DNA of 51,259 nucleotides from NCBI GenBank assembly GCA_965656375.1, contig CBFHKH010000001.1, forward strand, positions 79,432 to 130,690. Direction: 5' to 3'. Of this stretch, positions 27,805 through 51,259 are shown one piece after another (position 1 is the first letter of the stretch; each line of letters starts with the position of its first letter). Both the position numbers and the translations under genes were made by a program. The notes below the pieces were generated by a model that did no database searches, was not told the DNA's origin, and was given only the letters and a program-made list of their open reading frames with translations. The stretch is from Minisyncoccia bacterium (GTDB taxonomy: Bacteria > Patescibacteriota > Minisyncoccia > Phycocordibacterales > UBA9973).

Positions 27805-28065
27805 ATAAACGTATTCTAGCATATTCGTACTAATTCCATTATTTGAAAATATCGCTCTTTCTGGTATATTCTATCCATGTCACTCTCTATTGGAATGGAG
27901 TGAACACAATTCCGAATCCAGAAGGCGATGAAAATAAAAATGCAGCCGTTATTCCCTTTGAATTTGCGATAGAAATCCCTGAGACTGGGAAAAAGCAAGA
28001 TCAAATTAATAAAGTAACCAGCTGCGCTGCTTAAGCTAAAAATGAAATTGTGATATAGTTAAAGG

Positions 28066-28563
28066 GTGAAACTCCCGGGAGAAAATAATTATGCACTTAT
28101 TGATGGCGCAAACCTTCATAGAGGCTTACAAGCCCTTGGGTGGGATCTTGATTATAAGAAGTTCAGGGTTTGGCTGACTGACAAATTCTCTATTACACGT
28201 GCGTATATTTTCCTTGGGAATATTCCTAAATATAGCAAACTCTATGCTCACTTACAGGAATGTGGCTATACTCTTATTTTTAAAGAAGTGGTATATGATG
28301 GAAGCGGAAAAGCCAAAGGGAACTGTGATGCTGACCTGGTATTAAAAACAGTGCAGGAGTATTATGAAGGAGGTTATGATAAGGCCCTTATTATTTCAAG
28401 CGACGGAGATTATACCTCACTGGTAAATTTCTTGATAACAAAAGGTAAATTAAAAGCGATCCTTTCTCCGGCTAAAGAAAGTAAGTGTTCAGTATTACTG
28501 AAACGTACGGGAGCTAAAATATCATACATTAATGATCAACGATCTCATATTGAACTAAAATAA
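28066..28563 (+). CDS. NYN (LabA/DUF88, PIN-like) ribonuclease-domain protein
   Basis: ALIDGANL, KGNCDADLV and ISSDGDY acidic motifs. Confidence 0.85.
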   Translation: MKLPGENNYALIDGANLHRGLQALGWDLDYKKFRVWLTDKFSITRAYIFLGNIPKYSKLYAHLQECGYTLIFKEVVYDGSGKAKGNCDADLVLKTVQEYYEGGYDKALIISSDGDYTSLVNFLITKGKLKAILSPAKESKCSVLLKRTGAKISYINDQRSHIELK

Positions 28564-28734: not shown

Positions 28735-30039
28735 ATGAGCGATATAACCTACATCGGCACTACCAACTGGCGTAACCAGAACAAACGTTTTGGTATCATC
28801 GACAAAGACAGGTTTGGGCACATCTATGTAATCGGTAAGACAGGTGTTGGCAAATCAACCCTGTTGTTAAATATGGCTGTTGCAGATATAAAAAACGGGA
28901 AAGGGCTTTGTATCATTGACCCCCACGGTGATATAGCGGAAGCTTTACTTGATCATATACCAGCTGAGAGGATAGAGGATGTAATATATTTCAACCCTAA
29001 AGATACCCGGTACCCCATAGGCTTCAATCCGCTGAAAGCAGTCCACCCAAATTACCATCACCTGGTGGCTTCAGGGCTTGTTTCAACATTCAAAAAGATA
29101 TGGGCTGATTCCTGGGGTCCGAGGCTTGAATACATTCTGCGCTTTGCTGTACTCACATTGCTTGAATACCCCAACGCCACTCTTCTTGATATCCAACCCT
29201 TGCTTACAGATACATACTTCAGGAACAAGGTGATGGCCTATGTAACAAATCCCCATACACAATCTTTCTGGACACATGAGTTTGATAAATACAGCCCCCA
29301 GTTCAAATCAGAAGCGATAACACCAATCCTTAACAAGACAGGTGTATTTCTGACAAGCATTCCACTGCGAAATACAGTCGGACAGACAACCAATAGTTTC
29401 AGGATGCAGCAGGTACTTGATGAGGGAAAAATATTAATCGTCAACCTTTCAAAAGGAGAACTAGGAGAAGATGCATCTTCCATATTAGGCAGTGTCCTGG
29501 TTACGTCTATCCAGTTGGCTGCTTTGTTCCGTTCAACCCAACAGGAACATGAACGCAAACCTTTTTATCTCTACGTAGATGAAATGCACTCTTTCATCTC
29601 CCTGTCATTTGCCGATATTTTGTCTGAAGCACGTAAATACAAGCTCTCCTTGTTTCTTACCCACCAGTATATTGAACAAATAGATGAAAGGATCAGGGCT
29701 GCTATATTTGGCAATGTGGGCACGCTCATATCATTCCGGGTTGGTGCAGAAGATGCAGCACACCTGGCCAAAGAATTCCAGCCTGAATTTGCGGAAGCTG
29801 ATTTTGTAATCCTTCCCAAATATCACATGTACCTAAAGCTGATGATTGAAGGGGCTAGTTCAAGACCCTTCAGTGCAACGACCCTGCCGCCTCAGGAAAC
29901 TTCAGGTAAAGTGAGGGATGCGGTAATAGCATGTTCACGCAGAAACCATGCGAGAAAACGGGAAGCTGTTGAGAAAAGTATTTTAAGCAAGTACCCCAAA
30001 TCAAAAGAAGCAAATAACAGAAAGGGGTTGTTTGATTAA
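28735..30039 (+). CDS. VirD4/TraG-like P-loop ATPase (start moved to ATG 28735)
   Basis: GKTGVGKS, DPHGD, LYVDEMHSF, EARKY; collinear with the 11807 ATPase domain. Confidence 0.85.
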   Translation: MSDITYIGTTNWRNQNKRFGIIDKDRFGHIYVIGKTGVGKSTLLLNMAVADIKNGKGLCIIDPHGDIAEALLDHIPAERIEDVIYFNPKDTRYPIGFNPLKAVHPNYHHLVASGLVSTFKKIWADSWGPRLEYILRFAVLTLLEYPNATLLDIQPLLTDTYFRNKVMAYVTNPHTQSFWTHEFDKYSPQFKSEAITPILNKTGVFLTSIPLRNTVGQTTNSFRMQQVLDEGKILIVNLSKGELGEDASSILGSVLVTSIQLAALFRSTQQEHERKPFYLYVDEMHSFISLSFADILSEARKYKLSLFLTHQYIEQIDERIRAAIFGNVGTLISFRVGAEDAAHLAKEFQPEFAEADFVILPKYHMYLKLMIEGASSRPFSATTLPPQETSGKVRDAVIACSRRNHARKREAVEKSILSKYPKSKEANNRKGLFD

Positions 30040-30163
30040 ACAGGTATCGAGATAACATAAAAGACCATTTGGGAAGATTAAAAGTTACCACTTTGTGGTA
30101 TTGTAAATGGCTATCTATATAACTATTTTGTAATTCATTTTCTCTCACAAAAAACCTTATGTT

Positions 30164-30775
30164 ATGACCACCTTCCAGCTTATACCGGAAATGTTCCCAA
30201 TGATATTTCTACTGTCCTTTGGCTCAGAGGAGTTTTCAATTTTTCTTGCTTTGCTTGTAATAGGCCTCATAGCGTATATCGTTATAAAAGCAACTAACCG
30301 GTCAATACGGGTAGTACATGCTCATTGGCATCATATGTTTGATACCAGGCCATTTGCCCCCAAAGAGTTCTATGAATACCTGAAGAATGATATACAAGAA
30401 AAAGGAATTGAAGGCATTTCATTCAGGGGAATAGTACACTCTGAACGGGGGCTTCTCTCTGCCAATCGTGCATATCTGCGAATACTGTATCGGGAATATA
30501 TGATTGATGTATGTGCCGCTCCTTTTGCCAAGGAAGCTTTCTTTGTTTCCTGGTGGCTTGGTGATGCCGGGATTACCTTTCGTGATTTTCTGATATGCAT
30601 ACCAGCTATCGGCAGATTATTCAGCCGGAGAGAAAAGACCTTTTATGAACAGGACACCGAGATCATGTTCAAAGAAATTATTGCAGGCTGTGTCAGAGAT
30701 GCGATTGAAAAGCTCACCGAAGAAAAAGGAAAGCGATTAACAATGGCAGATTGGAGAGGTTCCGATATTAAATAA
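30164..30775 (+). CDS. Hypothetical protein with an N-terminal TM segment
   Basis: 203-aa ORF in the same orientation between two ATPase genes; hydrophobic IFLALLVIGLIAYIVI. Confidence 0.7.
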   Translation: MTTFQLIPEMFPMIFLLSFGSEEFSIFLALLVIGLIAYIVIKATNRSIRVVHAHWHHMFDTRPFAPKEFYEYLKNDIQEKGIEGISFRGIVHSERGLLSANRAYLRILYREYMIDVCAAPFAKEAFFVSWWLGDAGITFRDFLICIPAIGRLFSRREKTFYEQDTEIMFKEIIAGCVRDAIEKLTEEKGKRLTMADWRGSDIK

Positions 30776-30783
30776 AGTAATCC

Positions 30784-33700
30784 ATGATGTCTCTTTCACA
30801 TGCTGAATACTACACGTATCAATACTATACGTGGGAATACCGGGGACGGGGTTGGTTTGTGGCAGAGCAGCCGGTATGTCTGGAACCTCCCTATATTCCT
30901 TTTTTCAGGCATGGATATACTCCTCAACATGTTGATGATGGCAAGCGACATACACTTGTAAGCAGGTTCATCGAGTACATTAAGGGCAAGAAACAGGAAC
31001 AACCTGGTGAACAAAAGGTATTAGATTATGAAGAACTGGAGCCTTTTGGTGTTGAAAAGGAAACTGGTTTAAAGGCGGTACAGGTAAAACTACCTAGAGA
31101 AAGGAAAATAACTCCAGAGAAGATGAAAGCATTGCTTGTGATGCTTTCGCAATCAGGTACAACCATTTCATTTGAAATAATCGGCACCGCAAAAGAGATT
31201 GTTCTACAATTTGTGTGCAGCGCTGCAGATATCACTATTACAAAAACATACCTGGAGGCATACTTCCCTGAGTATACACATATATCCAGTGATGAACTAC
31301 TTGAAAATATCATAGTTGAGAATAAGCAAACAGCCGTTATTGATTTTGGGTTGCAACAGGAGTTTGTCAGACCAATTCAAGTGGTAAAGAATTTTACTAT
31401 TGATCCGCTGACTGGACTATTTGGAATACTTGATCAACTTCATGGTGATGAACAGGCGGGAATACAAATACTTTTTCAGGGAACAGTAAACCACTGGAGT
31501 GAAAGCATTGTTCGCAGTGTTACGATGTCTGATGGTAGCTCATTCTTTAATGACGATCCCAATGCGCCAAAGGTTGCACTGGAGAAGATACAAAGCACAC
31601 TATTTGGTGTTACTATCCGGGCCTTCACACATGCAGATACACAAGCAGATTCATTCGGGATAGTGCAAAAGCTGAGTTATGCAATTATGAATGCTTCGGT
31701 AAGCACAATCAATCAATTAATACCGCTCTCATCCGAAGACTATGATTTTGAAACAAGGGTACGTGATATCTGTCTGCGTGAATCACACCGCTTGGGTATG
31801 CTGTTGAATGCAGATGAACTTACAACCCTGCTTCACTTCCCATCCGAGAGTATCAGCTCCAAAAAATTATTCGCTTCCATGCGAAAGACCAAGGAGGTAC
31901 CAGGCATAGCCAAAGGAAAGGCGTTTGTACTGGGAGAAAATTATCACAACGGTATAACAGGCAAAGTAACGTTTGGTATTGAGGACAGATTAAAGCATAC
32001 CCATATCATCGGAGCAACCGGCACGGGCAAATCAACCCTCATTGCAAACCTAATCACCCAGGATATTGAACAGGGTCATGGTATTGTACTCTTTGATCCA
32101 CACGGGGACCTGGTAGATGATGTTATTGCATCAATACCCGAGAAACGGATACAAGATGTGGTGCTGGTTGATCCGTCAGATACAGCATATTCAGTAGGGT
32201 TAAATATCCTTGAGGCCCATAGTGATGTCGAGAAGGAAGTACTTTCATCAGACCTGGTTGCTGCATTCAGGAAATATTCCACTTCCTGGGGCGACCAGAT
32301 GAATGCCGTTTTTGGTAATGCGATACTTGCAGTACTTGAAAATACAGAAGGAGGAACACTCAATGACATCCGGAGGTTCTTGATTGAAAAAGACTTCAGG
32401 CAAAAGTATCTTAAGAATGTAACCGACCCTTCGGTGATATATTACTGGCAGAAAGAGTATCCACTGATTAAAACAAATTCTATTGGCCCAATACTTACCA
32501 GGCTAAATACATTCCTGCGACCCCGTGCCATTCGCAATATGGTCATTCAGCATAAAGGGCTTGATTTTGAAACCCTGCTCAATACGAAAAAGATTGTTTT
32601 GCTTAAACTCTCACAGGGATTGATTGGTACTGAAAACAGTTTTTTGTTGGGTTCGTTAGTGCTTTCCAAAATTCACCAGGCCATATTCAGACGACAGCAA
32701 CAGGCCATTCGCAACCCGATCTTTCTGTACCTCGATGAGTTTCAGAACTTCATTACCCCATCTATCAAGGAAATGCTAAGTGGCATCAGGAAGTATAATG
32801 TCGGACTTACTTTATCCCACCAGGATTTACAGCAACTGCAACGGGAAGATGGAGAATTGTTAAACAGTGTCCTCGGCAACATCAATACCAGGATTGTGTT
32901 TCGAGTAGGTGAACCTGATGCAAAAAAACTTCAGGATGGCTTTACGGGCTTTGACTTTACAGATCTCCAGAATTTAAGCAGGGGAGAAGCTGTCATACGC
33001 ATAGAACAGCCACAGTATGATTGTTCGCTGGATACATTTGCGCTCAGGGAAGTATCAGGTGAACAGCGGAAGAGCAATATAGAATCCGTAACCGCCTTTT
33101 CACGGAAAGAGTATGCAAGTCCGAGGGAAGAAGTTGAAAAAATGCTTTTTGAAACCCTTGATCTTGAAATTCAACCAACAGAGAAGAATGATACCCCACT
33201 GCATGAAGTAAAAGAAAAGAAGCAAAAGGATGAGAAGCTTGTACCAGTTGTAACTGACACAGATAAGCCTGTAGCAACAGAGAAAAAATCTGAACCAACA
33301 AAAGAGGTAAAGGAAGGAAAAGACATAACCACTCACCGCTATTTGCAGACATTGGTAAAGAAGATGGCAGAATCAAGGGGGTATATCGCAGTTCTTGAAA
33401 CACAGGTGCCGGATGGTAGCGGGTTGGTAGATGTGTTACTTACCAAGGAGAACAAAACTACAGCCATTGAAATATGCAGCACTACTGATGCAGACTGGGA
33501 GATGCATAACATACAAAAGTGTATTGATGCAGGCTATGATACCATCATATCTCTCTGTGGTGATATAAAGCAGCTTGAGAAGATCAAAAAGAAATGTCTC
33601 GAATATATTCCTGCAATTACCGGAAAGGAAGTCTATTTCTTTACTCCTGATACACTTTTTGCATTTTTAGATACAGAAACCAAAGCAACAGTTCCCCCAG

Positions 33701-33831
33701 AACAGGTTATTAAAGGCTATCGGGTGAATGTAACCTATGATGCAGTTTCCCTTGAAGATATGCAGCGCAAACGGGCCTCTGTAGCACAAGTGGTGATGAA
33801 TTCGCTCAGAAAAAGAAAGAAGGGAAGTTAA
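30784..33831 (+). CDS. Large VirD4/TraD-like ATPase with an N-terminal extension and a C-terminal PD-(D/E)xK-like domain
   Basis: GATGTGKS, DPHGD, LYLDEFQNF, RKYNVGLTLSHQ; C-terminal HRYLQ...VDVLL...AIEIC. Confidence 0.8.
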   Translation: MMSLSHAEYYTYQYYTWEYRGRGWFVAEQPVCLEPPYIPFFRHGYTPQHVDDGKRHTLVSRFIEYIKGKKQEQPGEQKVLDYEELEPFGVEKETGLKAVQVKLPRERKITPEKMKALLVMLSQSGTTISFEIIGTAKEIVLQFVCSAADITITKTYLEAYFPEYTHISSDELLENIIVENKQTAVIDFGLQQEFVRPIQVVKNFTIDPLTGLFGILDQLHGDEQAGIQILFQGTVNHWSESIVRSVTMSDGSSFFNDDPNAPKVALEKIQSTLFGVTIRAFTHADTQADSFGIVQKLSYAIMNASVSTINQLIPLSSEDYDFETRVRDICLRESHRLGMLLNADELTTLLHFPSESISSKKLFASMRKTKEVPGIAKGKAFVLGENYHNGITGKVTFGIEDRLKHTHIIGATGTGKSTLIANLITQDIEQGHGIVLFDPHGDLVDDVIASIPEKRIQDVVLVDPSDTAYSVGLNILEAHSDVEKEVLSSDLVAAFRKYSTSWGDQMNAVFGNAILAVLENTEGGTLNDIRRFLIEKDFRQKYLKNVTDPSVIYYWQKEYPLIKTNSIGPILTRLNTFLRPRAIRNMVIQHKGLDFETLLNTKKIVLLKLSQGLIGTENSFLLGSLVLSKIHQAIFRRQQQAIRNPIFLYLDEFQNFITPSIKEMLSGIRKYNVGLTLSHQDLQQLQREDGELLNSVLGNINTRIVFRVGEPDAKKLQDGFTGFDFTDLQNLSRGEAVIRIEQPQYDCSLDTFALREVSGEQRKSNIESVTAFSRKEYASPREEVEKMLFETLDLEIQPTEKNDTPLHEVKEKKQKDEKLVPVVTDTDKPVATEKKSEPTKEVKEGKDITTHRYLQTLVKKMAESRGYIAVLETQVPDGSGLVDVLLTKENKTTAIEICSTTDADWEMHNIQKCIDAGYDTIISLCGDIKQLEKIKKKCLEYIPAITGKEVYFFTPDTLFAFLDTETKATVPPEQVIKGYRVNVTYDAVSLEDMQRKRASVAQVVMNSLRKRKKGS

Positions 33832-33867: not shown

Positions 33868-34086
33868 TTATTCAAAATCAAATAAATCCTTCACAGACAC
33901 CTTTAGTTCAAGCGCAATCAAAAAAAGCGTTTTAGCAGTAGGATTTCCATGCCCCTTTTCCAAGTAGTTCATCCACTGCCTGTCCTTATCAATCCGTAGT
34001 GCCAGCTCTGTTTGACTCAATCCTGATTTTTTACGGACAGCAGCGATATGTTTTCCGAGCTTTTTCTGAAAGGTATCAATACTCAT
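33868..34086 (-). CDS. XRE-family helix-turn-helix regulator
   Basis: GLSQTELALRIDKDRQWMNYLEKGHGNPT. Confidence 0.9.
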   Translation of the reverse strand: MSIDTFQKKLGKHIAAVRKKSGLSQTELALRIDKDRQWMNYLEKGHGNPTAKTLFLIALELKVSVKDLFDFE

Positions 34087-34173: not shown

Positions 34174-34245
34174 ACTCCCAGTAATGTTTTCATGTAGTTG
34201 AGCTGGTGGTTCTCAATCATATTTAATCACTCAAAACTATCTTTT

Positions 34246-35025
34246 ATGCGAAACAATTTTCTTTACCTGATTATTCTCACCGTATTCCTAGTATCCTGTG
34301 GAAGTTCACGCAATACGACTACTTCTGAACCTCCACTTATGCGTATCCCTGCCAAGTTTGATTTCAGTCCACCGTTTCGGGGAGTGGCAGGCTCAACCGG
34401 TATCACGATTGCCATAGTAAAGCCAACCTATGTAGGCAAGAATGCCGAGTACTATGTACCACCCTTCAATGAAATGGCTGCCAGTATGGGCAATGACTTT
34501 GAAGAACTCTTAACCGCCAAAGGCTTTACTATGAGGGGACCTTTTGGCTCACGGGATGAAATGGTGTATAACGACAAGATAAACTCAAGCTTTATCCTTG
34601 AGATCGGCATCGAACTTACCCCGCAATATAACCGGAAGTATGCCACTAGCACCAAAACAAACTGGGGCTCTATTCTTGACAAAAATGCTCCGGCAACTAT
34701 ATCAACACAGAGGATGAGTGGGGAAATAACCATTGCGGGGAATCTGGTCATCAATGCTAAATCCTCTCAGTACGGAGAACTGATATGGAAGAAGAACATT
34801 TCCCTTGAAGCCACTTCATTCACCTATGCAGGATCTCTCACCTGGGACGGTGTGCCAACGATGGCTGAAGAACTGAAGAAGGATAACCAGGTGTATAATA
34901 CACTTTCTTCTGAACTAGAGAAGTTCTATCAAAAAGCCTTAAGCCTTGCCTGGCAGCAGATTGACCCTGCTGAAATGAAGTCTGTGGCAGAACAGGCAAA
35001 GAAAGCAGACAAGAAAGGAAATTGA
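34246..35025 (+). CDS. Lipoprotein of unknown function (start moved to ATG 34246)
   Basis: MRNNFLYLIILTVFLVSC lipobox. Confidence 0.75.
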   Translation: MRNNFLYLIILTVFLVSCGSSRNTTTSEPPLMRIPAKFDFSPPFRGVAGSTGITIAIVKPTYVGKNAEYYVPPFNEMAASMGNDFEELLTAKGFTMRGPFGSRDEMVYNDKINSSFILEIGIELTPQYNRKYATSTKTNWGSILDKNAPATISTQRMSGEITIAGNLVINAKSSQYGELIWKKNISLEATSFTYAGSLTWDGVPTMAEELKKDNQVYNTLSSELEKFYQKALSLAWQQIDPAEMKSVAEQAKKADKKGN

Positions 35026-35034
35026 TATCACAAG

Positions 35035-35072
35035 AATGCTAACCGGTATGTAGAACTGGTTAGTATTCTTTT
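35035..35072 (+). terminator. Probable intrinsic terminator
   Basis: AATGCTAACCGGT...ACTGGTTAGTATT stem (with G-U pairs) followed by CTTTT. Confidence 0.5.
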
Positions 35073-35368
35073 GACTCAAATATTTCTTGAGCAGAAAGTT
35101 AATGACCAGTAGTATAATGAAGGCGAAACCGGTAGAAAAAATTCTACTCCTACATAAATAAGCAAAAAAATTTTGCTGAGTTCAAATTTTAATTATACGT
35201 TTATGTAACAAAAGAAAACTAACCTTCATTACCCGTTTGTTTTTAATCCAATCTCCCTTGTAAAAGCAGTTTCAAGCAAGCATAAGAAAAATGTATCTAT
35301 CTGTTGTGTAGTGTACCTACTGCAATAGAGGTCTATTTAATTAAATTGTTTAAAACAAACCAGCCCCT

Positions 35369-36817
35369 ATGAGTCGTACCCGACTCTTCATAACAACCCT
35401 GATCATGCTTGCTGCGCAATGCTGCACAGCACAGACTGACAGCGTATTAAAAAGCCTGGAGAACCTCCAGAAAGTCCCCGTTAAATATTTAGATGCTGTT
35501 GAGAACAAGATAGATAAATACAGCAACCGCATAACCGGCAAAACCGAAAAAACACTTGCCAAGTTGAGCAAGTGGGAGAATAAAATCAAAAGCATTTTAG
35601 ACCAGGTTAGTCCTGAAACTTCCGACAAACTATTTGGCAATAATGCCACCACTTTTACCAGTCTGCTTAAAAAACTGCAGGAGGGTAAAGCTATTGCAGA
35701 AGGGTACAAAACAAAATACAACGAGTACCGCGATAAACTAACAACCAGTGTAAAATACCTGGAAGATCAGAAAGACAAGCTGGATAAAAAGTTTGTGCAA
35801 CCCATCAGCAATACCAAAAAGAAACTGGAGGAACTGGAAAAGGATGTAAACAATACCGAAGCAGTGGAAGCTTTTATCAAAGAACGAAAAAAGCAACTGG
35901 TTGATGAAGCTTTCAAGTATTTGGGAAAAAGCAAGTACCTGACTAAGATAGACAAGGAGGCTTACTATTATGTGGAAACACTGCGTAACTACAAAGAGTT
36001 GTTCAACGACAAAAAGAAAGCTGAAGAGCTGGCGCTGAAACTGCTGAATAAAATCCCGGCTTTTACTGAGTTTGCCCAAAAGAACAGTATGCTGGCGCAG
36101 TTATTCGGCTCGCCATCGGGTGGGGGTAATATGGCAAACCTGGCCGGGCTGCAAACCCGTGCAGGTGTCAATGCTTTGATACAGAACCGGCTGGCAGCGG
36201 GTGGCCCCAGCGCCCGGGAAGCTTTCAGCCAGAACATGCAGCAGGCACAAGCCGAACTTACCCAATTAAAAGACAAGATCATGAAAGTCGGTGGCAGCAG
36301 CAGCGAAGCCAATATACCCAGCTTTAAACCCAACGAACAGAGATCAAAAACCTTTTTACAGCGGCTTGAGTTTGGCAGCAATTTTCAGTTTGCCAAAAAC
36401 AACAGCCTGGTGCCCACCACTGCTGACATTGCACTGAGTGTTGGGTACAAACTGAATGATAAATCAATCATTGGTATTGGTGCCAGTTATAAAATGGGAC
36501 TGGGCAGCATACAGCGCATCAGCATCAGCCACCAGGGCATCGGGCTCAGAAGTTTTATAGACTGGAAACTGAAGAAACAGTTTTTTGTAACCGGCGGGTT
36601 TGAGATGAATTACAATGCCCGGTTCAAAAATATAGATCAGCTGCAGAATTATAGCGACTGGCAGCAAAGCGGGTTAGTGGGACTGACCAAGAAATTAAAC
36701 ATCAAAACAAAATTCTTTAAAGGCACCAGTGTACAGTTATTGTACGATATGCTGTACCGGCAACACAACCCGGTTAGTCAGCCGGTGCTGTTTAGGATGG
36801 GTTATAGTTTTAAATAA
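35369..36817 (+). CDS. Exported protein: coiled-coil N-terminal half, probable outer-membrane beta-barrel-like C-terminal part
   Basis: Signal peptide ending CTA|Q, long K/E/L helical region, amphipathic beta-strand pattern, ends LFRMGYSFK. Confidence 0.6.
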   Translation: MSRTRLFITTLIMLAAQCCTAQTDSVLKSLENLQKVPVKYLDAVENKIDKYSNRITGKTEKTLAKLSKWENKIKSILDQVSPETSDKLFGNNATTFTSLLKKLQEGKAIAEGYKTKYNEYRDKLTTSVKYLEDQKDKLDKKFVQPISNTKKKLEELEKDVNNTEAVEAFIKERKKQLVDEAFKYLGKSKYLTKIDKEAYYYVETLRNYKELFNDKKKAEELALKLLNKIPAFTEFAQKNSMLAQLFGSPSGGGNMANLAGLQTRAGVNALIQNRLAAGGPSAREAFSQNMQQAQAELTQLKDKIMKVGGSSSEANIPSFKPNEQRSKTFLQRLEFGSNFQFAKNNSLVPTTADIALSVGYKLNDKSIIGIGASYKMGLGSIQRISISHQGIGLRSFIDWKLKKQFFVTGGFEMNYNARFKNIDQLQNYSDWQQSGLVGLTKKLNIKTKFFKGTSVQLLYDMLYRQHNPVSQPVLFRMGYSFK

Positions 36818-36836
36818 GTAATTCAATAATAATCTT

Positions 36837-39800
36837 ATGGTAAAAATGTTGTTTAGAAAATGTGTAGTTCTTGCAGTTTTTATTGCTGCAACATCGAAGT
36901 TACATGCACAGGCACAGGAAAATAATCCAATCAGTAAGATCACGATTGCGTCCCCAACGGCTGCATCACTTGGAAAATATGCTGATATACCTGTCAATTA
37001 TCATACTGGCATCCCCAAAGTTGATATACCTATTTATACAGTCTCTGCGGGACCATTATCATTGCCAATAAGCCTGAGTTATCATGCAGGGGGACTTAAA
37101 GTCCAAGAACCTGCAAGCTGGGTTGGAGCTGGCTGGGCATTGAATGCGGGAGGCGTGATAACCAGGAGCGTTATGGGCTCTCCTGATGAAAAGGGTACAA
37201 ATAACGGCGGGATCGAATTTAACGGTCATTTTAGCGATTATGGATATAATAATTATATCTGGAATCCGACATTGGGAGGGGGTAATTTCACAGGTGGTGA
37301 AGATTGGAAATTTGTTGCAGAAGGAAGACTGGATGGAGAGCCGGATCTTTTCTTTTTTAATTTTGGAGAATATAGCGGTAAATTTTATTTCCGGGACGAC
37401 AGGACGCCTGTTATCGTACCCGAGGCCGATTTTAAAATTGAACCTTATTATAATCCGCAGGGCAATATAAAAAGCATTCAAAGTTTTATAATAACCACTC
37501 CTGATGGGGTTAAATACTATTTTGGACAAACACCAGGTTTAACAGGTGTGGTGCCCATAGAAATTACCAATCCGGCAACACCCAACAATGGCGTTTCATC
37601 AGCTAATGTATATTCTAGCTGGTACTTAAATAAAATTACCACCGCTGATGAGCAGTTTTCTATTACACTCACCTATGCCACGGAAGACTACGGGTATCAT
37701 ACAGTTTCAATGTTCCCTATTGATGGTTCAGAACCGGCAGGAGGATACCCCACTTTTGGCGCAGCTCATGGGTATGACCTGGTAAAAAATATGGTTCATG
37801 GGGTAAGACTTAGCCAAATATCATTTCCTAACGGAACTGTTATTTTTTCAACCGATGGTATGTCTGCAAGATCAGATCTTAGTGATACAAATCCCTATTA
37901 TAATGCAGATGGATTAAATCAAAACGCAAAACCACTTGGAGCAATTGTGATCACGGATGGTACAAATCCTGTAAAGAAGTTTAATTTTTCATACGGATAT
38001 TTTGAAGATAATACAACACCCATACCACAGGATATAGCCAATTTTGCTCCTAATTTATTCACTGATAAAAAGCGATTGAGGCTTGACCAGGTCCAGGAAA
38101 TATCCGGTGATAATTCATTAAACAAACCACCCTATAGTTTTACTTATTTTAGTGAGCAGGTTCCCCGTCGGTTGAGTTTTAGCATCGATCATTGGGGTTT
38201 TAATAACGGGGTCACTAATAATACAGGATTAATACCCTCCTACCTTGAAACTACATTTAGCCATACAACCTCTCACCCCGGTGCCGACAGGGACTCTTAC
38301 TGGCCGGCAATGAGAGCAGGAAGTTTGCAGCAAATAAATTATCCTACCGGGGGATTCTCTCTTTTTGAGTTCGAAGCTAATACTGTTTATAATACCAACA
38401 CATCTAATGTTAATGTGCCATTGAGTAATCTAACTGTACATCTTTATGGCCAGAATACGTATACAAACAGCTCCGTATTTACAAGCAATGGGGCTTTTAT
38501 GAATCTTTCTGTAAACAACGGCACCAATTATCCTGCAGTATTTACCATCACAGATAACACTAATACCATTATTCATACCCAGAGTGTTCCGGAATATCAG
38601 AATTTCAGTGGTACCGTACCAATGTATCCGCAGGGAACTTATACTGCTAGGCTTACAATAAATAACAACTCTACAGGTGGTGCCCAATCTTCATTATCGC
38701 AATGGCAAACTGTTACAACAATCAATGACGTAATTGTTGGTGGCAACAGAATAAAAAAAATAACACATAATGACGGAGTTACAACAAATAACATGATCAC
38801 TAATTATGATTACAATGCTGATAATAATCATTCAAGCGCTATTTTATTCAGCAGGCCCGCTTATGTAGGTATTTTAAGAAATGATTTTATCAGGGATGTT
38901 GGCCTCCTGGATCCTTACTACGGTTACCAACCCACTTATGGAACTTATGGTTGTGCATATTGCAACTTGGATGGGGTGTGTTATTTCAAGTCGACTAACA
39001 GCATACGCCCGATGGCAACAACACAAGGTAATCCTTTAGGCTATTCACAGGTAAAAGTGTCACAAACAGGCAATGGCTATAGTATTTATAAATACTACGG
39101 TCCTACAAATGTTCAACCCTGGCAGGTTAATAACGGCGATATAGCTGTACGTACTGTAAACAGGCAAAATTGTGATAATAATTCTCAAAGTTATCCCTTT
39201 GCCCCATTGCCATATGATTTTCTGCGTGGCGAATTAAAGTATGAAGCACGCTTTAATGAGGCCAGTCAAATGCTTCAGGAAAAAATATATACGCCGGTTT
39301 ATGTAAACAATCCCATAAAGACACCGGGGCTGATTGCAACATCTACCGGAGCAGGTACTATCTTATCTACCAAATATGAATTAACCACAGCCCGTAAAAC
39401 ACAATCACAAGTAATTGAAACAAATTATGACCCGGCAACCAATACATCTTTAACAACAACCAGTACCTCGTACTTTGAAAGTCCGTTTCATAATAATGCT
39501 ACCCGAACTTCTGCTACAAACTCGAAAAATGAAGTATTGGAAACAAAGATGAAGTATGCTTTTGACTTCAGGATATCAAACTGTGAAAGTATTAGTGATG
39601 GATATGCACAATACAATACCGATTGTGCCACATGCCTTGCCAATAAAAATGCAGCCACTACAGCTTGTGGCAGTAATAATATTTGCCGAACCAATGCATA
39701 TCTCACTTATATGCATTGCCTGAACACTGCTAGGTCAAACTGGGTTGCTTACAGGCGTACAAATTTTACCGATCCGGTAAATACTTTTAAAACAAATCAT

Positions 39801-41006
39801 GATAATGCGAAAACAGGAGCAGATGCTGAATTAAAACCCATTTTGCAGCTCCAGGATGATTATTCAAACAACGCAATTGAAACTTCGAAATGGAAAAACG
39901 GCAATTTACTTGGCTCTACCTTCAGCAGGTTTGATTACAGTTCAAATCCGGCTGGTAAAGTATATATAAATAAGGTACAGACAATTAACCTGGGTGCTGC
40001 TTCTTCCACTTTCACTATTTCAAATACTAATGGAAGCAATAATGGTTTAATTAAAGACAACCGTTACCAAGATGAATCTTTTGCTAAATTCTACAATGGT
40101 AACCTGGCTGAGCTAACCTCCAGGGATGGCATAACCACTGCCTACATTTGGGGCTATAACAATACCTTGCCGATTGTAAAATCAATTGGAGTAAGCCATA
40201 GTACTTTATTATCAGCTTATAACGCAGTTGGAGGCAATCTTTCTCAACTTCGAAGCCAGCCTTCTATAAGCGGCGCCCAGTTAAATACGTATGTGTATAC
40301 ACCAATAACCGGAATGACTGCTGAAACAGATGTGAATGGAAAGAGTATGACCTATGAATATGATGCATTGCAAAGATTGCTACTGATCAGGGACTTTAAT
40401 AATAATATCATTAAGCAGTATGAGTACAAATACCAGGTTATGCCTCCGTCCGGCGCAGCTCAATGGATTGCCACCGGAGCCACCCGCTGTAAACCATGCC
40501 CGCAAAACAACAATTACATCAGCAATATTTTGCAGCAGGAGGAAAAGGATAACAATCCTCAAAGTGCCAGCTATAATACGCTACGCTGGACAGATATTGG
40601 TATTAGCAATGTTTGTGTATCAGTTGCAGATTGGCAAAATTCTTCTTTGGCTATACGTTGCCGGGTGTCGGATATTTCCGGCCAAAATACAGGCGAACAG
40701 GAACAGCAACAAATAGATATGAACCCATGCAGCAGTACCTACGGTCAGACAAGGTGGGTTGTGGTAGGTATTAATTACAGCATTTGCCCGCTTCCTGCAG
40801 GTTGCAGCAGCACAAACTGCACCGGGGTAGATAAAAAGTGTATTAACAATAATTGTGAAACAGGATCCAAAGTATATACAGGATCATACTTTGACAAAAA
40901 GACCGGGCAGTGGATGTGTATTTATCATTACCACTGGAGCGATGGAAGCAATAGTGTCGATTATTACGAACCTTCAACCGGGCAATGTATGTCAGGCGGA
41001 CTCTAA
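36837..41006 (+). CDS. Exported YD/RHS-repeat protein with an SpvB/TcB-like N-terminus and a Cys-rich C-terminal extension
   Basis: Signal peptide ending LHA|Q; TGIPKVDIPIY...LSLSYH...WVGAGWAL; YD-like repeats such as YEYDALQRL; no DPxG core motif seen. Confidence 0.8.
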   Translation: MVKMLFRKCVVLAVFIAATSKLHAQAQENNPISKITIASPTAASLGKYADIPVNYHTGIPKVDIPIYTVSAGPLSLPISLSYHAGGLKVQEPASWVGAGWALNAGGVITRSVMGSPDEKGTNNGGIEFNGHFSDYGYNNYIWNPTLGGGNFTGGEDWKFVAEGRLDGEPDLFFFNFGEYSGKFYFRDDRTPVIVPEADFKIEPYYNPQGNIKSIQSFIITTPDGVKYYFGQTPGLTGVVPIEITNPATPNNGVSSANVYSSWYLNKITTADEQFSITLTYATEDYGYHTVSMFPIDGSEPAGGYPTFGAAHGYDLVKNMVHGVRLSQISFPNGTVIFSTDGMSARSDLSDTNPYYNADGLNQNAKPLGAIVITDGTNPVKKFNFSYGYFEDNTTPIPQDIANFAPNLFTDKKRLRLDQVQEISGDNSLNKPPYSFTYFSEQVPRRLSFSIDHWGFNNGVTNNTGLIPSYLETTFSHTTSHPGADRDSYWPAMRAGSLQQINYPTGGFSLFEFEANTVYNTNTSNVNVPLSNLTVHLYGQNTYTNSSVFTSNGAFMNLSVNNGTNYPAVFTITDNTNTIIHTQSVPEYQNFSGTVPMYPQGTYTARLTINNNSTGGAQSSLSQWQTVTTINDVIVGGNRIKKITHNDGVTTNNMITNYDYNADNNHSSAILFSRPAYVGILRNDFIRDVGLLDPYYGYQPTYGTYGCAYCNLDGVCYFKSTNSIRPMATTQGNPLGYSQVKVSQTGNGYSIYKYYGPTNVQPWQVNNGDIAVRTVNRQNCDNNSQSYPFAPLPYDFLRGELKYEARFNEASQMLQEKIYTPVYVNNPIKTPGLIATSTGAGTILSTKYELTTARKTQSQVIETNYDPATNTSLTTTSTSYFESPFHNNATRTSATNSKNEVLETKMKYAFDFRISNCESISDGYAQYNTDCATCLANKNAATTACGSNNICRTNAYLTYMHCLNTARSNWVAYRRTNFTDPVNTFKTNHDNAKTGADAELKPILQLQDDYSNNAIETSKWKNGNLLGSTFSRFDYSSNPAGKVYINKVQTINLGAASSTFTISNTNGSNNGLIKDNRYQDESFAKFYNGNLAELTSRDGITTAYIWGYNNTLPIVKSIGVSHSTLLSAYNAVGGNLSQLRSQPSISGAQLNTYVYTPITGMTAETDVNGKSMTYEYDALQRLLLIRDFNNNIIKQYEYKYQVMPPSGAAQWIATGATRCKPCPQNNNYISNILQQEEKDNNPQSASYNTLRWTDIGISNVCVSVADWQNSSLAIRCRVSDISGQNTGEQEQQQIDMNPCSSTYGQTRWVVVGINYSICPLPAGCSSTNCTGVDKKCINNNCETGSKVYTGSYFDKKTGQWMCIYHYHWSDGSNSVDYYEPSTGQCMSGGL

Positions 41007-41017
41007 AAATATTAACA

Positions 41018-41545
41018 ATGAAATTATTAGCAACCTTATTATTGATTACGGGAGGTTTCCTTCCTTCCAGTATTTATACAAAGCAATTTACCAACCTGGA
41101 GGGCACCAATATAAGCCTGGCGCAATATCAGGGTAAAAGAATTTTACTGGTAAATGTTGCCTCGCAAAGCGAATATGCCGCTGAGCAGTTGCCGCAACTG
41201 GAACAATTGTACCAGCAACATAAAGACAGCCTAGTGGTAATCGCATTCTCGTCAAATGACTTTGGTAATGAACCACGCACTGATGCAGAGATTAAATTGT
41301 TGATGCAGTACAGTTATGATGTTCATTTTCCGGTATCAGTAAAGTGTACAGTTAATGACGGCGTTGCAAACACCCATCCTGTTTATGTCTGGCTTCAAAA
41401 TCAAAATGAGAATGGGAGCCTGGGGGTGAAAGTGCAAAAGGATTTTCAAAAATATGTAATAGATAAGGATGGAACACTGATCGGCGTTTTTGGAGCTAAG
41501 ACAAAGCCAATGGACAGTGCGATCATTAAAACCATCACACAATAA
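41018..41545 (+). CDS. Glutathione-peroxidase-like (thioredoxin-fold) exported protein lacking the peroxidatic Cys
   Basis: YQGKRILLVNVASQSEY, AFSSNDFG.EP, HPVYVWL and FQKYVIDKDG align by eye with GPx motifs. Confidence 0.8.
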   Translation: MKLLATLLLITGGFLPSSIYTKQFTNLEGTNISLAQYQGKRILLVNVASQSEYAAEQLPQLEQLYQQHKDSLVVIAFSSNDFGNEPRTDAEIKLLMQYSYDVHFPVSVKCTVNDGVANTHPVYVWLQNQNENGSLGVKVQKDFQKYVIDKDGTLIGVFGAKTKPMDSAIIKTITQ

Positions 41546-41572
41546 TATTCATACCTACTAATTGTAATAAAT

Positions 41573-46093: not shown

Positions 46094-46110
46094 AATTTTA
46101 ATTCAATAAT

Positions 46111-46944
46111 ATGAAAACACAGCTCAAATTAAATTCAGTAGTTCCTCATGGAGTCGGTAGTAGTTCAGAATCAGGAGCTATTGATTTTATATATAGTTAT
46201 CTTCTTTCCGCTTACCAGCAAGATTCTTATAGATTCATTTCAATTAACCAAATTGGTAGTGAGTTGAATGAATTTGTATTAGAAGAAAATGGAAAGCATG
46301 TTCATGTAAATATTCGCTACCCAGTATATGAAGATTTTGAAAACAAATCTGATTTTGAAAAAAACCTAATAAGACTTGAGATTATTCATTCTGCATTATT
46401 AAGAATAGCAAATGAATATAGTAAATTGAATGTCCAAAGACTAATTGAAATAAAGGAAAATATACTACTTAACAAATTCTCTTTTGATATAGAATATAAA
46501 ACACATATAAACATTAAAAAACCTAATCTTATTGCTAAAATTGTAGTCAATCCAGAAATAAATAAATTTAATTTTTTTTGTGTTATTGAAGATAAAGGAA
46601 AAGTATTGTGTAAAATCAAAATTTACTCTGGGTTAACAAACATGTATTATTTCAGAGATTTTTTCTCTATTGTGAAATGGAATTCAGATGACGAAATAAT
46701 AATTACAGGCAAAGCAAAAGAAGTAAAGATTTCTATTTTAATAAATAACTGTGAAATAAATTTTACTAACTTAACTAGGTATGAAAAACCACCGTATTTT
46801 GAGATGATGAAATCAGATGTTTCTGCAAAAGAAAGAGGGACCGCATATAATAATTGGTTGAACTCACAACCTTCAGAAATTTCAAGAGTAATTAAAGAAA
46901 ATAATGATACTTCATTCTACCCAGATTCAGCTTCCGAATCTTGA
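46111..46944 (+). CDS. Putative cognate immunity protein
   Basis: Starts 17 nt after the toxin stop and is AT-rich like the toxin tip; no recognisable family. Confidence 0.65.
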   Translation: MKTQLKLNSVVPHGVGSSSESGAIDFIYSYLLSAYQQDSYRFISINQIGSELNEFVLEENGKHVHVNIRYPVYEDFENKSDFEKNLIRLEIIHSALLRIANEYSKLNVQRLIEIKENILLNKFSFDIEYKTHINIKKPNLIAKIVVNPEINKFNFFCVIEDKGKVLCKIKIYSGLTNMYYFRDFFSIVKWNSDDEIIITGKAKEVKISILINNCEINFTNLTRYEKPPYFEMMKSDVSAKERGTAYNNWLNSQPSEISRVIKENNDTSFYPDSASES

Positions 46945-47089
46945 GGACTACCGTAGTTGTTTTTTGCCCCCGTAGTGTGTGTCACGAATGAAAAGAGTGG
47001 ATATTTCTTCCGCTGTGGGTGTTCGCTAATTCGTAAACGCCCCCGCCTTGTCTCTGACAAGTGGGCAGCACGCAAGCCCACTGCTAATT

Positions 47090-47158
47090 ATGATTACCGA
47101 CCAGAACAAGCAGATACAAAATATTGAGTACAATTATTTAAACCTACCAGCAGTGATA
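47090..47158 (+). pseudogene. Orphan RHS fragment
   Basis: Encodes ITDQNKQIQNIEYNYLNLPAVI, matching DYNK...YNFLNLPSVI in the upstream RHS gene. Confidence 0.55.
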
Positions 47159-47892
47159 AGGTCTCTCAAAGAACCATTTCGACAAAGACACCCGCCAAAA
47201 CAAAAGAACAATTGCGATTACCTTTTTGAAGCCCTTTGATTGCATCGCAATACTTCTTTTGCCCTTCGGGTTGCTTCGCAATTTTGTCACATTCTTTGTA
47301 GCTCAATGTTCCTTTGTTCAGGAAACTCCTGTGTCTGAAAAGCAACTACACCCTCACTCTTTTACCCATACTTCGCTCTGGCTTGGTTTCGTGTAGCTAG
47401 GCTATTGTATTTCAGTACGGCAATAGCTACCCAAACCATAATACTATTCCTCAGCTATTTGCACGTATTTCATACAATGCTTTCCATACACTTCACCATG
47501 CCCCGCTTGTATGGAAGTTCCGGTATAGTCCCTTTTCATCCACCCGTTTCCAATAATTTGGCGAGCCGGCGGCCACTGTCTGCGTTTGGTGCTGCCGTCA
47601 CAAGGCTACCCCTATACCTTTGTATGCTCTATGGCAGCACCGCACTGTGTATTCAGATTCCTTACAGTCATACCCCTAAATACGCCATCCAGTGGCGCTC
47701 GCAGACCCATCCAATCGTACCTCATTCCTGTGTCTTTGCTGGCTCGCCCCGGAGCTACGGTGTTGAAAGCTTTCAACACGGCTCTGGCTTCTTTTGGCTG
47801 AGGGCTCCTTTACCGGAAAATATTAACAGAGAAAAAAATGACAGGAAGATTAACAAAAATATTTATATATTGTGTGTGTTAAAACCGAAATG

Positions 47893-48126: not shown

Positions 48127-48140
48127 AAATTAATTCTAGT

Positions 48141-50084: not shown

Positions 50085-50103
50085 AAACTAGAGTGTTTTT
50101 TAC

Positions 50104-50640: not shown

Positions 50641-50647
50641 AATCGTC

Positions 50648-50935: not shown

Positions 50936-50939
50936 ACTT

Positions 50940-51257: not shown

Positions 51258-51259
51258 AA

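What the first reader, a model, noticed from the sequence alone, without database searches (positions are those of the whole stretch)
28735..33831. CPR-style ATPase pair plus nuclease-like domain in Bacteroidota-like DNA
The 28735 protein is strikingly collinear with the left-half ATPase 11807 (HLVASGLVSTFKKIWADSW vs HLVASGLMGIFTKIWANAW; LKLMIEGASSRPFSATTLPP vs LKLMIDGVTSRPFSASTLPP), although its DNA style matches the right half. It is followed by a membrane-anchored protein and a second, 1015-aa ATPase ending in a DVLL...AIEI (PD-(D/E)xK-like) domain. No relaxase or mating-pair genes are in view. Inference: a three-gene DNA-translocase/nuclease module (defence or mobilisation) whose family has moved between CPR and Bacteroidota.
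Basis: partly seen in the sequence, partly recalled or inferred. Interest (0 to 1): 0.65.

Follow-up and report, generated by a model that had tools for sequence, protein, structure and literature searches.

The report
ATPase trio heading a mobile island
The three genes are the conserved core of a 50-kb mobile DNA island typical of soil and water Bacteroidota, which a serine recombinase inserted into the start of the housekeeping gene ychF of a tiny CPR bacterium; a near-identical copy sits elsewhere in a different, larger-genome host, so the island appears to move between very distant bacteria.

Summary
28735-30039 encodes a soluble TrwB/VirD4-like ATPase (A434), 50% identical to the CPR ATPase at 11807. 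It is followed by a membrane-anchored 203-aa protein (S203) and a 1015-aa ATPase (A1015) with a PD-(D/E)xK-like tail.

The trio is not a free-standing CPR module. It lies at the left end of a 50,274-bp element (window 27,889 to C1 157,601) integrated into codons 5-7 of the CPR ychF gene. Joining the flanks restores [16 protein letters not shown], the YchF start of related CPR contigs.

A Logan contig from another sample carries the same element (89-96% nt). There the ychF-type attachment site is unused, and the element is joined to non-CPR-like DNA next to mqnC through its second serine recombinase.

S203 lies directly upstream of A1015 in 76/76 testable loci, mostly Chitinophagaceae. A434 and large serine recombinases each occur within 10 kb in about half. 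No relaxase, T4SS or capsid genes were found.

A434 and the CPR ATPase fall in separate deep clades, so their likeness is old kinship.

Most likely the trio is the element's DNA-handling or transfer motor. Defence is the main rival.

The parts
27877..27888 (+). Displaced first four codons of the host ychF gene (ATG TCA CTC TCT = MSLS), left behind at the left junction
   Evidence: Joining the left flank to the right flank (C1 157,602 onward) gives [26 protein letters not shown]. This is identical to the YchF N-terminus of related uninterrupted contigs L084-L086, L089, L092-L095, L105 and L122.
27889..27896 (+). attL core ATTGGAAT (crossover around the central GG). The same 8 bp form attR at C1 157,594-157,601, 50,274 bp to the right and outside the window.
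   Evidence: The blastn alignments of L001 to C1 overlap at L001 6363-6376. Junction sequences are. attP has 14/20 inverted arms around a non-palindromic GG.
27897..28034 (+). Detached 3' end (last ~45 codons) of the element's terminal large serine recombinase SR1. The body of the gene is at the other end of the element, C1 155,976-157,601.
   Evidence: In the unrecombined form (L001/L167) SR1 is one 587-aa ORF running straight into this stretch. In C1 it is 564 aa with a foreign tail.
28066..28563 (+). NYN-domain ribonuclease-like gene (165 aa), first complete gene of the element
   Evidence: Pfam NYN 1.1e-12. It occupies the same position between SR1 and A434 in L001/L167.
28735..30039 (+). 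A434: soluble TrwB/VirD4-like P-loop ATPase. Walker A GKTGVGKS (residue 34), Walker B YLYVDE (residue 278), no transmembrane segment.
   Evidence: Pfam TrwB_AAD_bind, DUF87, T4SS-DNA_transf and TraG-D_C. NCBIfam conjugative T4CP models score far below their cut-offs. Motifs and hydropathy are; homologues.
30164..30775 (+). S203: N-terminal membrane helix plus an alpha/beta domain of unknown fold. Obligate upstream partner of A1015.
   Evidence: Directly upstream of the A1015 homologue in 76 of 76 loci with room. Alignment A1. Model pLDDT 86.7. No structural match at E<1e-3 in PDB or BFVD. No Pfam, NCBIfam or PADLOC hit.
30784..31923 (+). A1015 N-terminal domain (residues 1-380), conserved, with no sequence-detectable family
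   Evidence: Invariant residues in alignment A2. Confidently modelled. Whole-protein Foldseek alignments to VirB4/TrwK span about 850 columns, but TM is only 0.24-0.33.
31924..33156 (+). A1015 ATPase domain (residues 381-791): Walker A GATGTGKS (410), Walker B FLYLDE (647)
   Evidence: Pfam TrwB_AAD_bind 8e-16. Foldseek TrwB TM(target) 0.61-0.67, DndH C-domain 0.71, HerA 0.52. PADLOC mad8 8e-23.
33316..33678 (+). A1015 C-terminal PD-(D/E)xK-like domain (residues 845-965), joined by a disordered ~50-residue linker
   Evidence: Predicted alpha-beta-beta-beta-alpha-beta. Invariant H851, E872, D883, E896, N909, K912 and C913. Weak hits to CoiA_nuc, PDDEXK_9, Mrr_cat and EcoRV.
33868..34086 (-). 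Convergent XRE-type HTH regulator, 36 nt after A1015
   Evidence: Pfam HTH_3 1e-10. Present in the same place in L001, L002/L003 and 9 of the 80 genome loci.
34198..51259 (.). Cargo of the same element up to the window end: lipoprotein, RHS/DUF6443 toxin cassette, prenyltransferase-like and LRAT-like genes. The element continues to C1 157,601 with a Crp-like gene (named by eye), UvrD+OLD (Gabija-like), SSB, a second serine recombinase SR2, response regulator/kinase (assigned by homology to L168 genes), TIR, caspase, WD40-TIR, proline dehydrogenase, IS3-like transposase ORFs (named by eye), ArdC, RadC, XRE, a tyrosine recombinase and SR1.
   Evidence: Pfam scans. ORF list of C1 126-163 kb. L168 gene table. 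Tetranucleotide/GC shift over C1 about 108-158 kb.

Best explanation
SHOWN: A434, S203 and A1015 are the conserved backbone genes at the left end of a 50,274-bp integrative element. A large serine recombinase (SR1) inserted this element into codons 5-7 of ychF in a Paceibacteria-type CPR chromosome. The attachment site of SR1 lies inside the 3' end of its own gene. Integration therefore cuts about 45 codons off SR1 and gives ychF an element-encoded start (MSHYVLS-IGIVG...). The element carries a second serine recombinase (SR2) whose attachment site also lies inside its own gene. A 89-96% identical copy from another sample is joined through that site to non-CPR-like DNA, just upstream of mqnC. 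INFERRED: the trio is the element's own DNA-handling or transfer machine, not cargo. S203 holds A1015 at the membrane. A1015 would be a ring translocase of the TrwB/VirB4/HerA kind that pumps DNA, and its PD-(D/E)xK-like tail cuts or nicks the DNA in place of a relaxase. A434 would be a second, soluble coupling-type motor that works with the neighbouring recombinase end. In the circular form SR1, NYN, A434, S203 and A1015 all read in one direction. Excision could therefore place the motor genes behind the recombinase promoter.
For: Integration: L001 aligns to C1 as a circular permutation with overlapping ends. attL, attR and attP share ATTGGAAT, and attP has inverted arms around a central GG. 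The joined flanks encode the exact YchF start of relatives. In relatives L085, L087 and L105 the left-flank gene miaA and the right-flank genes ychF and dn194 lie within a few kb of each other. An independent Logan contig of the source run crosses attL with no differences. Second state: L167/L168/L169 are collinear with C1 143,847 down to 138,373. They then leave into 44%-GC DNA with MqnC, PAP2, a 1121-aa FG-GAP protein, MOSC and SNF2, while SR1-NYN-A434 stay contiguous. Backbone status: S203 is adjacent to A1015 in 76/76 loci; A434 lies within 10 kb in 37/80; an LSR in 40/80; an SR2-type LSR (>=45% identity) in 26/80, 10 of them directly downstream. The trio is kept between C1 and the X2 copy while blocks of cargo are replaced. 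It is also kept in L003, where the recombinase type differs. SSB, ArdC and RadC, which from my own knowledge are typical of DNA that enters cells by conjugation, recur in the element and in relatives. Both ATPases keep Walker A and B motifs. A Sulfitobacter plasmid has its 42% homologue 1.3 kb from a recombinase gene. The module is practically absent from 2.9 million viral contigs.
Against: No experiment or transcript data bear on function. No relaxase, oriT, pilus or channel protein was found, so how DNA would cross the envelope is unexplained. A434 and A1015 lack the membrane domain of true coupling proteins. The best PADLOC hit (mad8, 8e-23) and the ATPase-plus-nuclease build also fit a defence effector, and the island is full of defence genes. 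The canonical Lys of the nuclease motif is replaced (E896-I-C898). The neighbourhood census started from A1015 homologues only. The reverse census, asking how many such recombinases have the ATPases, was not possible. The host of the second copy is unnamed.
Confidence: 0.5

Rival explanations
1. The trio is an anti-phage or anti-plasmid defence system carried by the island. A membrane-tethered HerA/FtsK-like translocase would load on foreign DNA and its fused PD-(D/E)xK nuclease would degrade it, with A434 as a second ATPase subunit. This would be analogous to HerA-nuclease systems, DndH/DptH or the MAD7-MAD8 module of MADS.
For: PADLOC mad8 hits: 8e-23 (A1015) and 1.4e-17 (A434), plus weaker HerA and DndH hits. 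MADS has an ATPase-nuclease module MAD7-MAD8 (PMC13662399). The DndH C-domain gives the best TM to target, 0.71. The island carries Gabija-like OLD+UvrD, TIR, caspase and RHS genes. Defence genes commonly sit next to integrases.
Against: No methyltransferase or other mad/dnd partner genes are adjacent. The native CPR paralogues hit mad8 as well (P0004 7.8e-17, the 399-1874 protein 4.4e-13), so the hit reflects the ATPase fold. The trio stays constant while neighbouring defence cargo is exchanged, and it tracks the recombinases across phyla. This pattern is usual for core genes of mobile elements.
Confidence: 0.22
2. The ATPases serve recombination or maintenance of the excised circle rather than transfer. 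They could act as DNA translocases that assist or direct the adjacent serine recombinases, as FtsK drives XerCD. Alternatively they could segregate or resolve the episomal form.
For: Each ATPase gene tends to sit beside a recombinase gene: A434 with SR1/SR_L2-type, A1015 with SR2-type. The FtsK precedent is established knowledge.
Against: Serine recombinases need no ATP, and known directionality factors are small proteins (my knowledge). In half of the loci no recombinase lies within 10 kb. The membrane anchor and nuclease tail are not explained.
Confidence: 0.13
3. The CPR/Bacteroidota juxtaposition is an assembly or binning artefact, and the trio belongs only to a Bacteroidota genome.
For: The genome is a metagenome assembly. 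Composition changes sharply at the island. Four other CPR-labelled contigs with the module could not be verified as CPR.
Against: The shared sequence at the junctions is only 8 bp (about 12 of 14 over the overlap), too short for a k-mer chimera. Both junctions fall exactly at the element's own attP. The joined flanks rebuild a perfect CPR-type ychF start, and flank synteny is kept in relatives. A second assembler's contig crosses attL.
Confidence: 0.05

Closest known systems
Type IV coupling proteins (TrwB of R388, VirD4, TraD, DotL)
   Same: Same P-loop fold with the all-alpha insertion. Pfam TrwB_AAD_bind, T4SS-DNA_transf and TraG-D_C all match, and the A1015 model superposes on TrwB (TM to target 0.61-0.67).
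   Different: No N-terminal membrane domain. No relaxase or T4SS nearby. Scores are 35-58 bits against curated cut-offs of 250-650. The PDB sequence match to TrwB covers only about 50 residues. A1015 adds a 380-aa N-domain and a nuclease-like tail.
VirB4/TrwK with its small membrane partner VirB3
   Same: Two-domain build (N-domain plus C-terminal ATPase). VirB4/TrwK chains are the top Foldseek hits (E 2e-15, about 850 aligned columns). A small membrane protein is encoded immediately upstream, as VirB3 is for VirB4 (the VirB3 point is from my knowledge).
   Different: TM-scores are only 0.24-0.33. NCBIfam VirB4_CagE scores 40 bits against a cut-off of 643. S203 has a 150-residue alpha/beta domain unlike VirB3. 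No other VirB genes are present.
Relaxase-poor DNA transfer systems: Streptomyces TraB (FtsK-like, double-stranded DNA), crenarchaeal conjugative plasmids with only TraG- and TrbE-like ATPases, and the archaeal Ced DNA-import system
   Same: DNA movement that depends on one or two FtsK/HerA/VirB4-type ATPases plus small membrane proteins, without a recognisable relaxase. There are weak NCBIfam hits to CedD (6e-11) and CedB (8e-4), and 12 Sulfolobus plasmid records among the tblastn hits (system descriptions from my knowledge and PMC5704250).
   Different: No membership is shown and similarity is at superfamily level. The host envelopes differ.
ATPase-nuclease defence modules: HerA with Sir2 or DUF4297, DndH/DptH, MADS MAD7-MAD8
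   Same: A ring translocase-type ATPase combined with a nuclease. PADLOC mad8, HerA and DndH hits; structural match to the DndH C-domain.
   Different: Partner genes are absent. The nuclease is fused through a linker. The module behaves as the constant core of a mobile element.
Large-serine-recombinase integrative elements, in particular the ychF-targeting elements of Patescibacteria noted earlier in this scan; also SCCmec and the phage Mx8 intP/intX tail swap
   Same: SR1 has Resolvase+Recombinase+Zn_ribbon domains. It inserts into codons 5-7 of ychF, supplies a new start and loses its own tail. SR1 shares words with recombinases noted in 40 windows of 37 genomes, most of the listed ones described as Patescibacteria.
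   Different: At 50 kb it is several times larger than those 7-18 kb CPR elements. Its body is of Bacteroidota type. It carries a second serine recombinase with a different target, plus the ATPase trio.

Membership tests
Type IV coupling protein (VirD4/TraD/TrwB) | FtsK/HerA-superfamily nucleotide-binding domain with Walker A/B and an all-alpha domain | tested here: met
   Pfam TrwB_AAD_bind over profile positions 5-318 of 387. Motifs. Foldseek TrwB TM(target) 0.61-0.67.
Type IV coupling protein (VirD4/TraD/TrwB) | N-terminal transmembrane anchor | tested here: not met
   No hydrophobic segment in A1015. A434 has only one marginal 19-residue window (KD 1.74, at residue 247) inside its core, and that core begins at residue 1.
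Type IV coupling protein (VirD4/TraD/TrwB) | Score above the curated family thresholds | tested here: not met
   TIGR03743 53-58 bits against 366. conju_CD1115 36-56 against 250. TraD_Ftype 16-26 against 521.
Type IV coupling protein (VirD4/TraD/TrwB) | Encoded with a relaxase and/or a mating-pair formation (T4SS) cluster | tested here: not met
   None among the Pfam-scanned large ORFs of the 50-kb element. Several small or unassigned ORFs, and the flanks of the related loci, were not scanned with relaxase-specific profiles.
VirB4 | VirB4-type N-domain plus ATPase scoring above the family cut-off, with VirB3 and other VirB genes | tested here: not met
   TIGR00929 scores 39.8 bits against 643. 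Structural similarity is only at low TM. No VirB partners are present.
PD-(D/E)xK nuclease superfamily (A1015 tail) | alpha-beta-beta-beta-alpha-beta core fold | tested here: met
   AlphaFold2 secondary structure: H845-864, E868-874, E881-888, E891-898, H903-916, E920-925, at pLDDT about 87-92. No domain-only fold search could be run.
PD-(D/E)xK nuclease superfamily (A1015 tail) | Catalytic D ... (D/E)-x-K signature | tested here: inconclusive
   D883 and E896 are invariant and align with EcoRV D74 and D90. The Lys position is C898, while an invariant K912 sits on the next helix.
MADS defence system | Eight-gene mad1-mad8 operon with methyltransferase, kinase and nuclease partners | tested here: not met
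   Only the mad8 ATPase profile matches, apart from one marginal mad3 hit (E 0.0016). The neighbouring genes have no mad hits. Operon make-up is from PMC13662399.
Large-serine-recombinase integrative element | Resolvase + Recombinase + zinc-ribbon recombinase at an element end, and attL/attR derivable from attP x attB with a short core | tested here: met
   Pfam on SR1 and SR2. attL/attR/attP and the rebuilt attB.
Integrative mobilizable or conjugative element (IME/ICE) | Own relaxase/oriT (IME), plus a T4SS (ICE) | tested here: not met
   Neither was detected. oriT cannot be recognised with these tools.

The most novel reading that the evidence does not exclude
The island is a two-integrase shuttle that moves between a CPR epibiont and its larger host bacterium. 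A CPR-type recombinase (SR1) docks it in ychF of the CPR cell, and a second recombinase (SR2) docks it next to mqnC in the host. The S203/A1015/A434 trio would then be a minimal, relaxase-less DNA transfer machine that works across both kinds of envelope. If so, shared copies of such elements could be used to pair uncultured CPR bacteria with their hosts.
Probability: 0.25. Interest if true: 0.9.

Novelty: new variant of a known kind. Interest (0 to 1): 0.68.

Why it matters
First, it defines the hallmark genes of a large family of serine-recombinase islands, found mostly in Chitinophagaceae and other Bacteroidota. I found no description of this family in four literature searches of limited reach. 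The genome scan returned 193 relatives, and the protein-cluster search returned 1,365 proteins at E<=0.001 among the 8,000 candidates scored.

Second, it gives the many 'orphan' VirD4-like ATPases a concrete, testable context: they sit next to recombinases at element ends.

Third, it documents a recent transfer of 50 kb between a CPR bacterium and a non-CPR-like genome, with both integration states in hand. Gene flow between CPR bacteria and their hosts, and the identity of those hosts, are open questions. A shared mobile element with two target specificities is a direct handle on both.

Tried and rejected
- CPR origin of A434 by recent transfer: rejected. A434 and the P0004 family fall in separate, well-supported clades, and P0004 is 88-96% conserved within CPR.
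- Canonical conjugation module: rejected. The family cut-offs are not met and there are no tra genes.
- Phage origin: rejected. tblastn against phages gave only about 20% identity matches to half of the protein, and a profile scan of IMG/VR gave 3 distant loci.
- Assembly chimera: considered unlikely; see the rival explanations.
- S203 as a known fold: Foldseek against PDB and BFVD gave nothing below E 5e-3, only a vague helix-grip-like likeness.
- ychF next to the element in the 80 Bacteroidota-type loci: none found.
- mqnC next to SR2-type recombinases in those loci: none found. Other family members therefore use other targets.
- Naming the host of the second copy: cluster look-ups gave no organism names.
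- Verifying that the four CPR-labelled contigs (L022, L049, L052, L082) are really CPR: no informative flank genes.
As a result there is no read-level check of attR, attB or attP, no depth comparison, and no census in CPR relatives.

Full report
THE GENES

ORF 28735-30039 (A434; the TTG at 28657 is not the start, since 434-aa homologues cover it end to end) is 50% identical over 426 residues to the product of 11807-14107 (P0004). It is 36% identical to the core of the 1015-aa protein.

All four ATPases of the window (399, 11807, 28735, 30784) match Pfam TrwB_AAD_bind, DUF87, T4SS-DNA_transf and TraG-D_C. Against NCBI's curated conjugation families they score 35-58 bits where 250-650 are required. 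A434 and A1015 keep Walker A and B motifs and have no membrane segment. The 203-aa protein between them (S203) has one N-terminal membrane helix. The gaps are 124 nt before S203, 8 nt before A1015, and 36 nt to a convergent XRE gene.

WHERE THE GENES SIT

The window is C1:79,432-130,690 of an 871-kb assembly. P0004's core is 88-96% identical to proteins named Patescibacteria, Paceibacterota or Nomurabacteria, so the chromosome is of CPR type. By contrast, full-length A1015 homologues (42-73%) and A434 homologues (66-95%) come overwhelmingly from Chitinophagaceae and other Bacteroidota. A few come from Acidobacteriota, one from Planctomycetes, and four from CPR-labelled MAG contigs. Tetranucleotide and GC profiles mark C1 108-158 kb as foreign.

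THE ISLAND IS A REAL INTEGRATED ELEMENT

A Logan contig from another sample (SRR29270585_41277; loci L001, L167-L169) is 89-96% identical to the island but circularly permuted. L001 4171-6376 matches C1 155,398-157,601, which is a large serine recombinase (SR1). L001 6363-12619 matches C1 107,314-113,585, which is the SR1 tail, NYN, A434, S203, A1015 and XRE.

The two alignments overlap on a core, ATTGGAAT, present at window 27,889-27,896 and at C1 157,594-157,601. These positions are 50,274 bp apart. In the unrecombined site the core lies between 14/20 inverted arms around a central GG. From established knowledge, this is the usual anatomy of a serine-integrase site.

Joining the outer flanks gives ATG TCA CTC TCT ATT GGA ATC GTA GGT..., that is [22 protein letters not shown]. 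This is letter for letter the YchF N-terminus of uninterrupted relatives (YchF 62-85% identical) from JGI metagenomes. In three of those contigs the left-flank gene miaA and the right-flank genes ychF and dn194 lie within a few kb.

At attR the element supplies a new in-frame start (MSHYVLS-IGIVG...). SR1 shrinks from 587 to 564 residues and gains a foreign tail. The shared 8 bp is too short to cause a k-mer misjoin, and a second assembler's contig crosses attL without a difference.

A SECOND INTEGRATION STATE

Followed further, the same Logan contig is collinear with C1 143,847 down to 138,373. It then leaves the element inside the second serine recombinase gene (SR2, C1 136,889-138,628, at about residue 495, before its C-terminal HTH). 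It enters 44%-GC DNA encoding MqnC (start codon about 35-40 nt after the junction), DUF3817, a PAP2/haloperoxidase-like protein, a 1121-aa FG-GAP/ASPIC protein, MOSC and a 1253-aa SNF2 helicase.

In that copy SR1-NYN-A434 are contiguous and SR1 is full length. The element therefore has two serine recombinases, each with its attachment site inside its own 3' end. One site was used in ychF of the CPR cell, and the other next to mqnC in another host.

Notes from earlier windows of this scan describe many 7-18 kb Patescibacteria elements that insert in the same ychF codons with the same tail loss. SR1 shares words with recombinases in 40 such windows. These are unchecked leads. They suggest SR1 is a CPR-type recombinase riding on a Bacteroidota-type island.

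WHAT IS CONSTANT IN THE FAMILY

Eighty genome loci were selected by A1015 homology and inspected with 10-kb flanks.
- An S203 homologue lies directly upstream of A1015 in 76 of the 76 loci with room.
- A434 (>=44% identity) is present in 37.
- A large serine recombinase is present in 40.
- An SR2-type recombinase (>=45% identity, as conserved as A1015 itself) is present in 26, and in 10 of these it lies directly downstream of A1015.
- A434 lies within 2.5 kb of a recombinase in 15.
- ArdC, RadC, SSB and a 160-aa ORF recur.

Several genomes carry two copies. Between C1 and the Logan copy, blocks of cargo are exchanged while the trio is kept: WD40-TIR, proline dehydrogenase, the transposase-like ORFs and the tyrosine recombinase are replaced by glycosyltransferase, hydrolase, amine oxidase and methylase genes. 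In L003 the trio is kept (79% and 70% identity) although the recombinase is of another type. A Sulfitobacter plasmid has the best plasmid homologue of A434 (42%), 1.3 kb from a recombinase gene.

The complete 50-kb element has no relaxase, T4SS, capsid or terminase gene among the ORFs scanned. It does have SSB, ArdC, RadC, a Gabija-like OLD+UvrD pair, TIR, caspase and RHS genes. Viral collections practically lack the module.

STRUCTURES

The A1015 model (pLDDT 83.9) has four parts: an N-domain (1-380), the ATPase (381-791), a disordered linker (795-846), and a 120-residue alpha-beta-beta-beta-alpha-beta domain. Foldseek hits were:
- VirB4/TrwK first (E 2e-15, about 850 aligned columns, but TM 0.24-0.33);
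- TrwB (TM to target 0.61-0.67);
- HerA (0.52);
- the DndH C-domain (0.71).

The tail has invariant H851, E872, D883, E896 and K912. Its profile matches are weak but consistent: CoiA_nuc, PDDEXK_9, Mrr_cat and EcoRV. D883 and E896 align with EcoRV D74 and D90, and a Cys stands where the Lys should be.

S203 (pLDDT 86.7) is a membrane helix plus a five-stranded sheet and a long helix. It has no significant match in PDB or BFVD. The membrane helix is missing in about a quarter of the aligned orthologues and is replaced by internal hydrophobic inserts in the Acidobacteriota ones.

PHYLOGENY

In a FastTree of 124 ATPase cores, the A1015 cores form one long-branched clade (support 100). The Bacteroidota A434 proteins form another (100). 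The CPR P0004 family lies inside a third clade (96). A434 is not nested among the CPR sequences. CPR-labelled A1015 copies are interspersed with Bacteroidota and Acidobacteriota copies.

The superfamily is very large: 23,204 50%-identity clusters at E<=1e-3. A published survey found 5,713 VirD4-like homologues in 2,918 Patescibacteria genomes, only 148 of them near virB4 (PMC12102498).

MECHANISM

The following are shown: the element, its two integration states and the constancy of the trio.

The following is inferred. Because the trio is the hallmark of the family while defence cargo comes and goes, it most likely serves the element's own DNA handling. S203 would tether A1015 at the membrane. 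A1015 would translocate DNA, and its nuclease-like tail would cut or nick it. A434 would act as a second, coupling-type motor.

In the circular form SR1, NYN, A434, S203 and A1015 are co-directional, so excision could couple their expression to the recombinase promoter. From my knowledge, circularisation of Tn916 drives its transfer genes in this way. SSB, ArdC and RadC fit DNA that enters a new cell.

I put this reading at about 0.5, including roughly 0.9 for the integration part. Defence (MAD7-MAD8-like or HerA-nuclease-like) gets about 0.22, recombination or maintenance help about 0.13, and artefact about 0.05.

VERDICT

This is a new variant of a known kind: a serine-recombinase integrative element with an undescribed ATPase core. 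Its cross-phylum, two-state history is unusually well documented.

Noticed in passing
C1 136,889-138,628 (outside the window; SR2) and L168 12,820-12,990: The second serine recombinase also has its attachment site inside its own ORF, at about residue 495. In the other sample, integration next to mqnC therefore detaches its C-terminal HTH_3 domain. This mirrors the SR1 tail loss.
   Followed up: partly
L001 9,267-12,310 (= window 30,784-33,831): In the SRR29270585 copy the A1015 gene is called as two ORFs (233 + 769 aa). Single-base indels relative to the window lie at about 30,867, 31,472 and 33,195. This is either a pseudogene or a contig error.
   Followed up: no
C1 131,076-134,965 (outside the window): A UvrD-like helicase next to an OLD-family AAA_15+TOPRIM ATPase, which is the Gabija (GajA/GajB) layout. 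TIR, caspase (Peptidase_C14) and WD40-TIR genes follow at C1 142,314-145,252.
   Followed up: partly
window 24,911-27,822 (minus strand): Glucose-6-phosphate dehydrogenase, 6-phosphogluconate dehydrogenase and 6-phosphogluconolactonase lie between miaA and the ychF start. The closest relatives with miaA-ychF synteny (L085, L087) showed no hits to these three genes in that interval, so the block may itself be an acquisition.
   Followed up: no
C1 578,639-581,368 (minus strand, outside the window): A fifth TrwB-like ATPase of the genome (909 aa). Its match to A1015 starts at A1015 residue 267, so it includes part of the N-domain (33% over 512 residues).
   Followed up: no
L022, L049, L052, L082: Four contigs from MAGs labelled Parcubacteria, Minisyncoccia, Taylorbacteria and Moraniibacteriota carry S203-A1015. 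L022 and L082 also have an SR2-type recombinase (63% and 48% identical). I could not verify whether these are true CPR contigs or binning errors.
   Followed up: partly
L163 (Sulfitobacter mediterraneus plasmid NZ_CP081110.1, 97,127-101,181): The best plasmid homologue of A434 (42% identity) lies 1.3 kb from a 'recombinase family protein' gene on a plasmid typed non-mobilizable. The record has a second match elsewhere.
   Followed up: no
C1 150,787-151,269 (outside the window): A 160-aa ORF without any Pfam hit recurs (24-62% identity) in 12 of the 80 related loci, in several of them within a few kb of ArdC and/or RadC. It may be another backbone gene of the element family.
   Followed up: no
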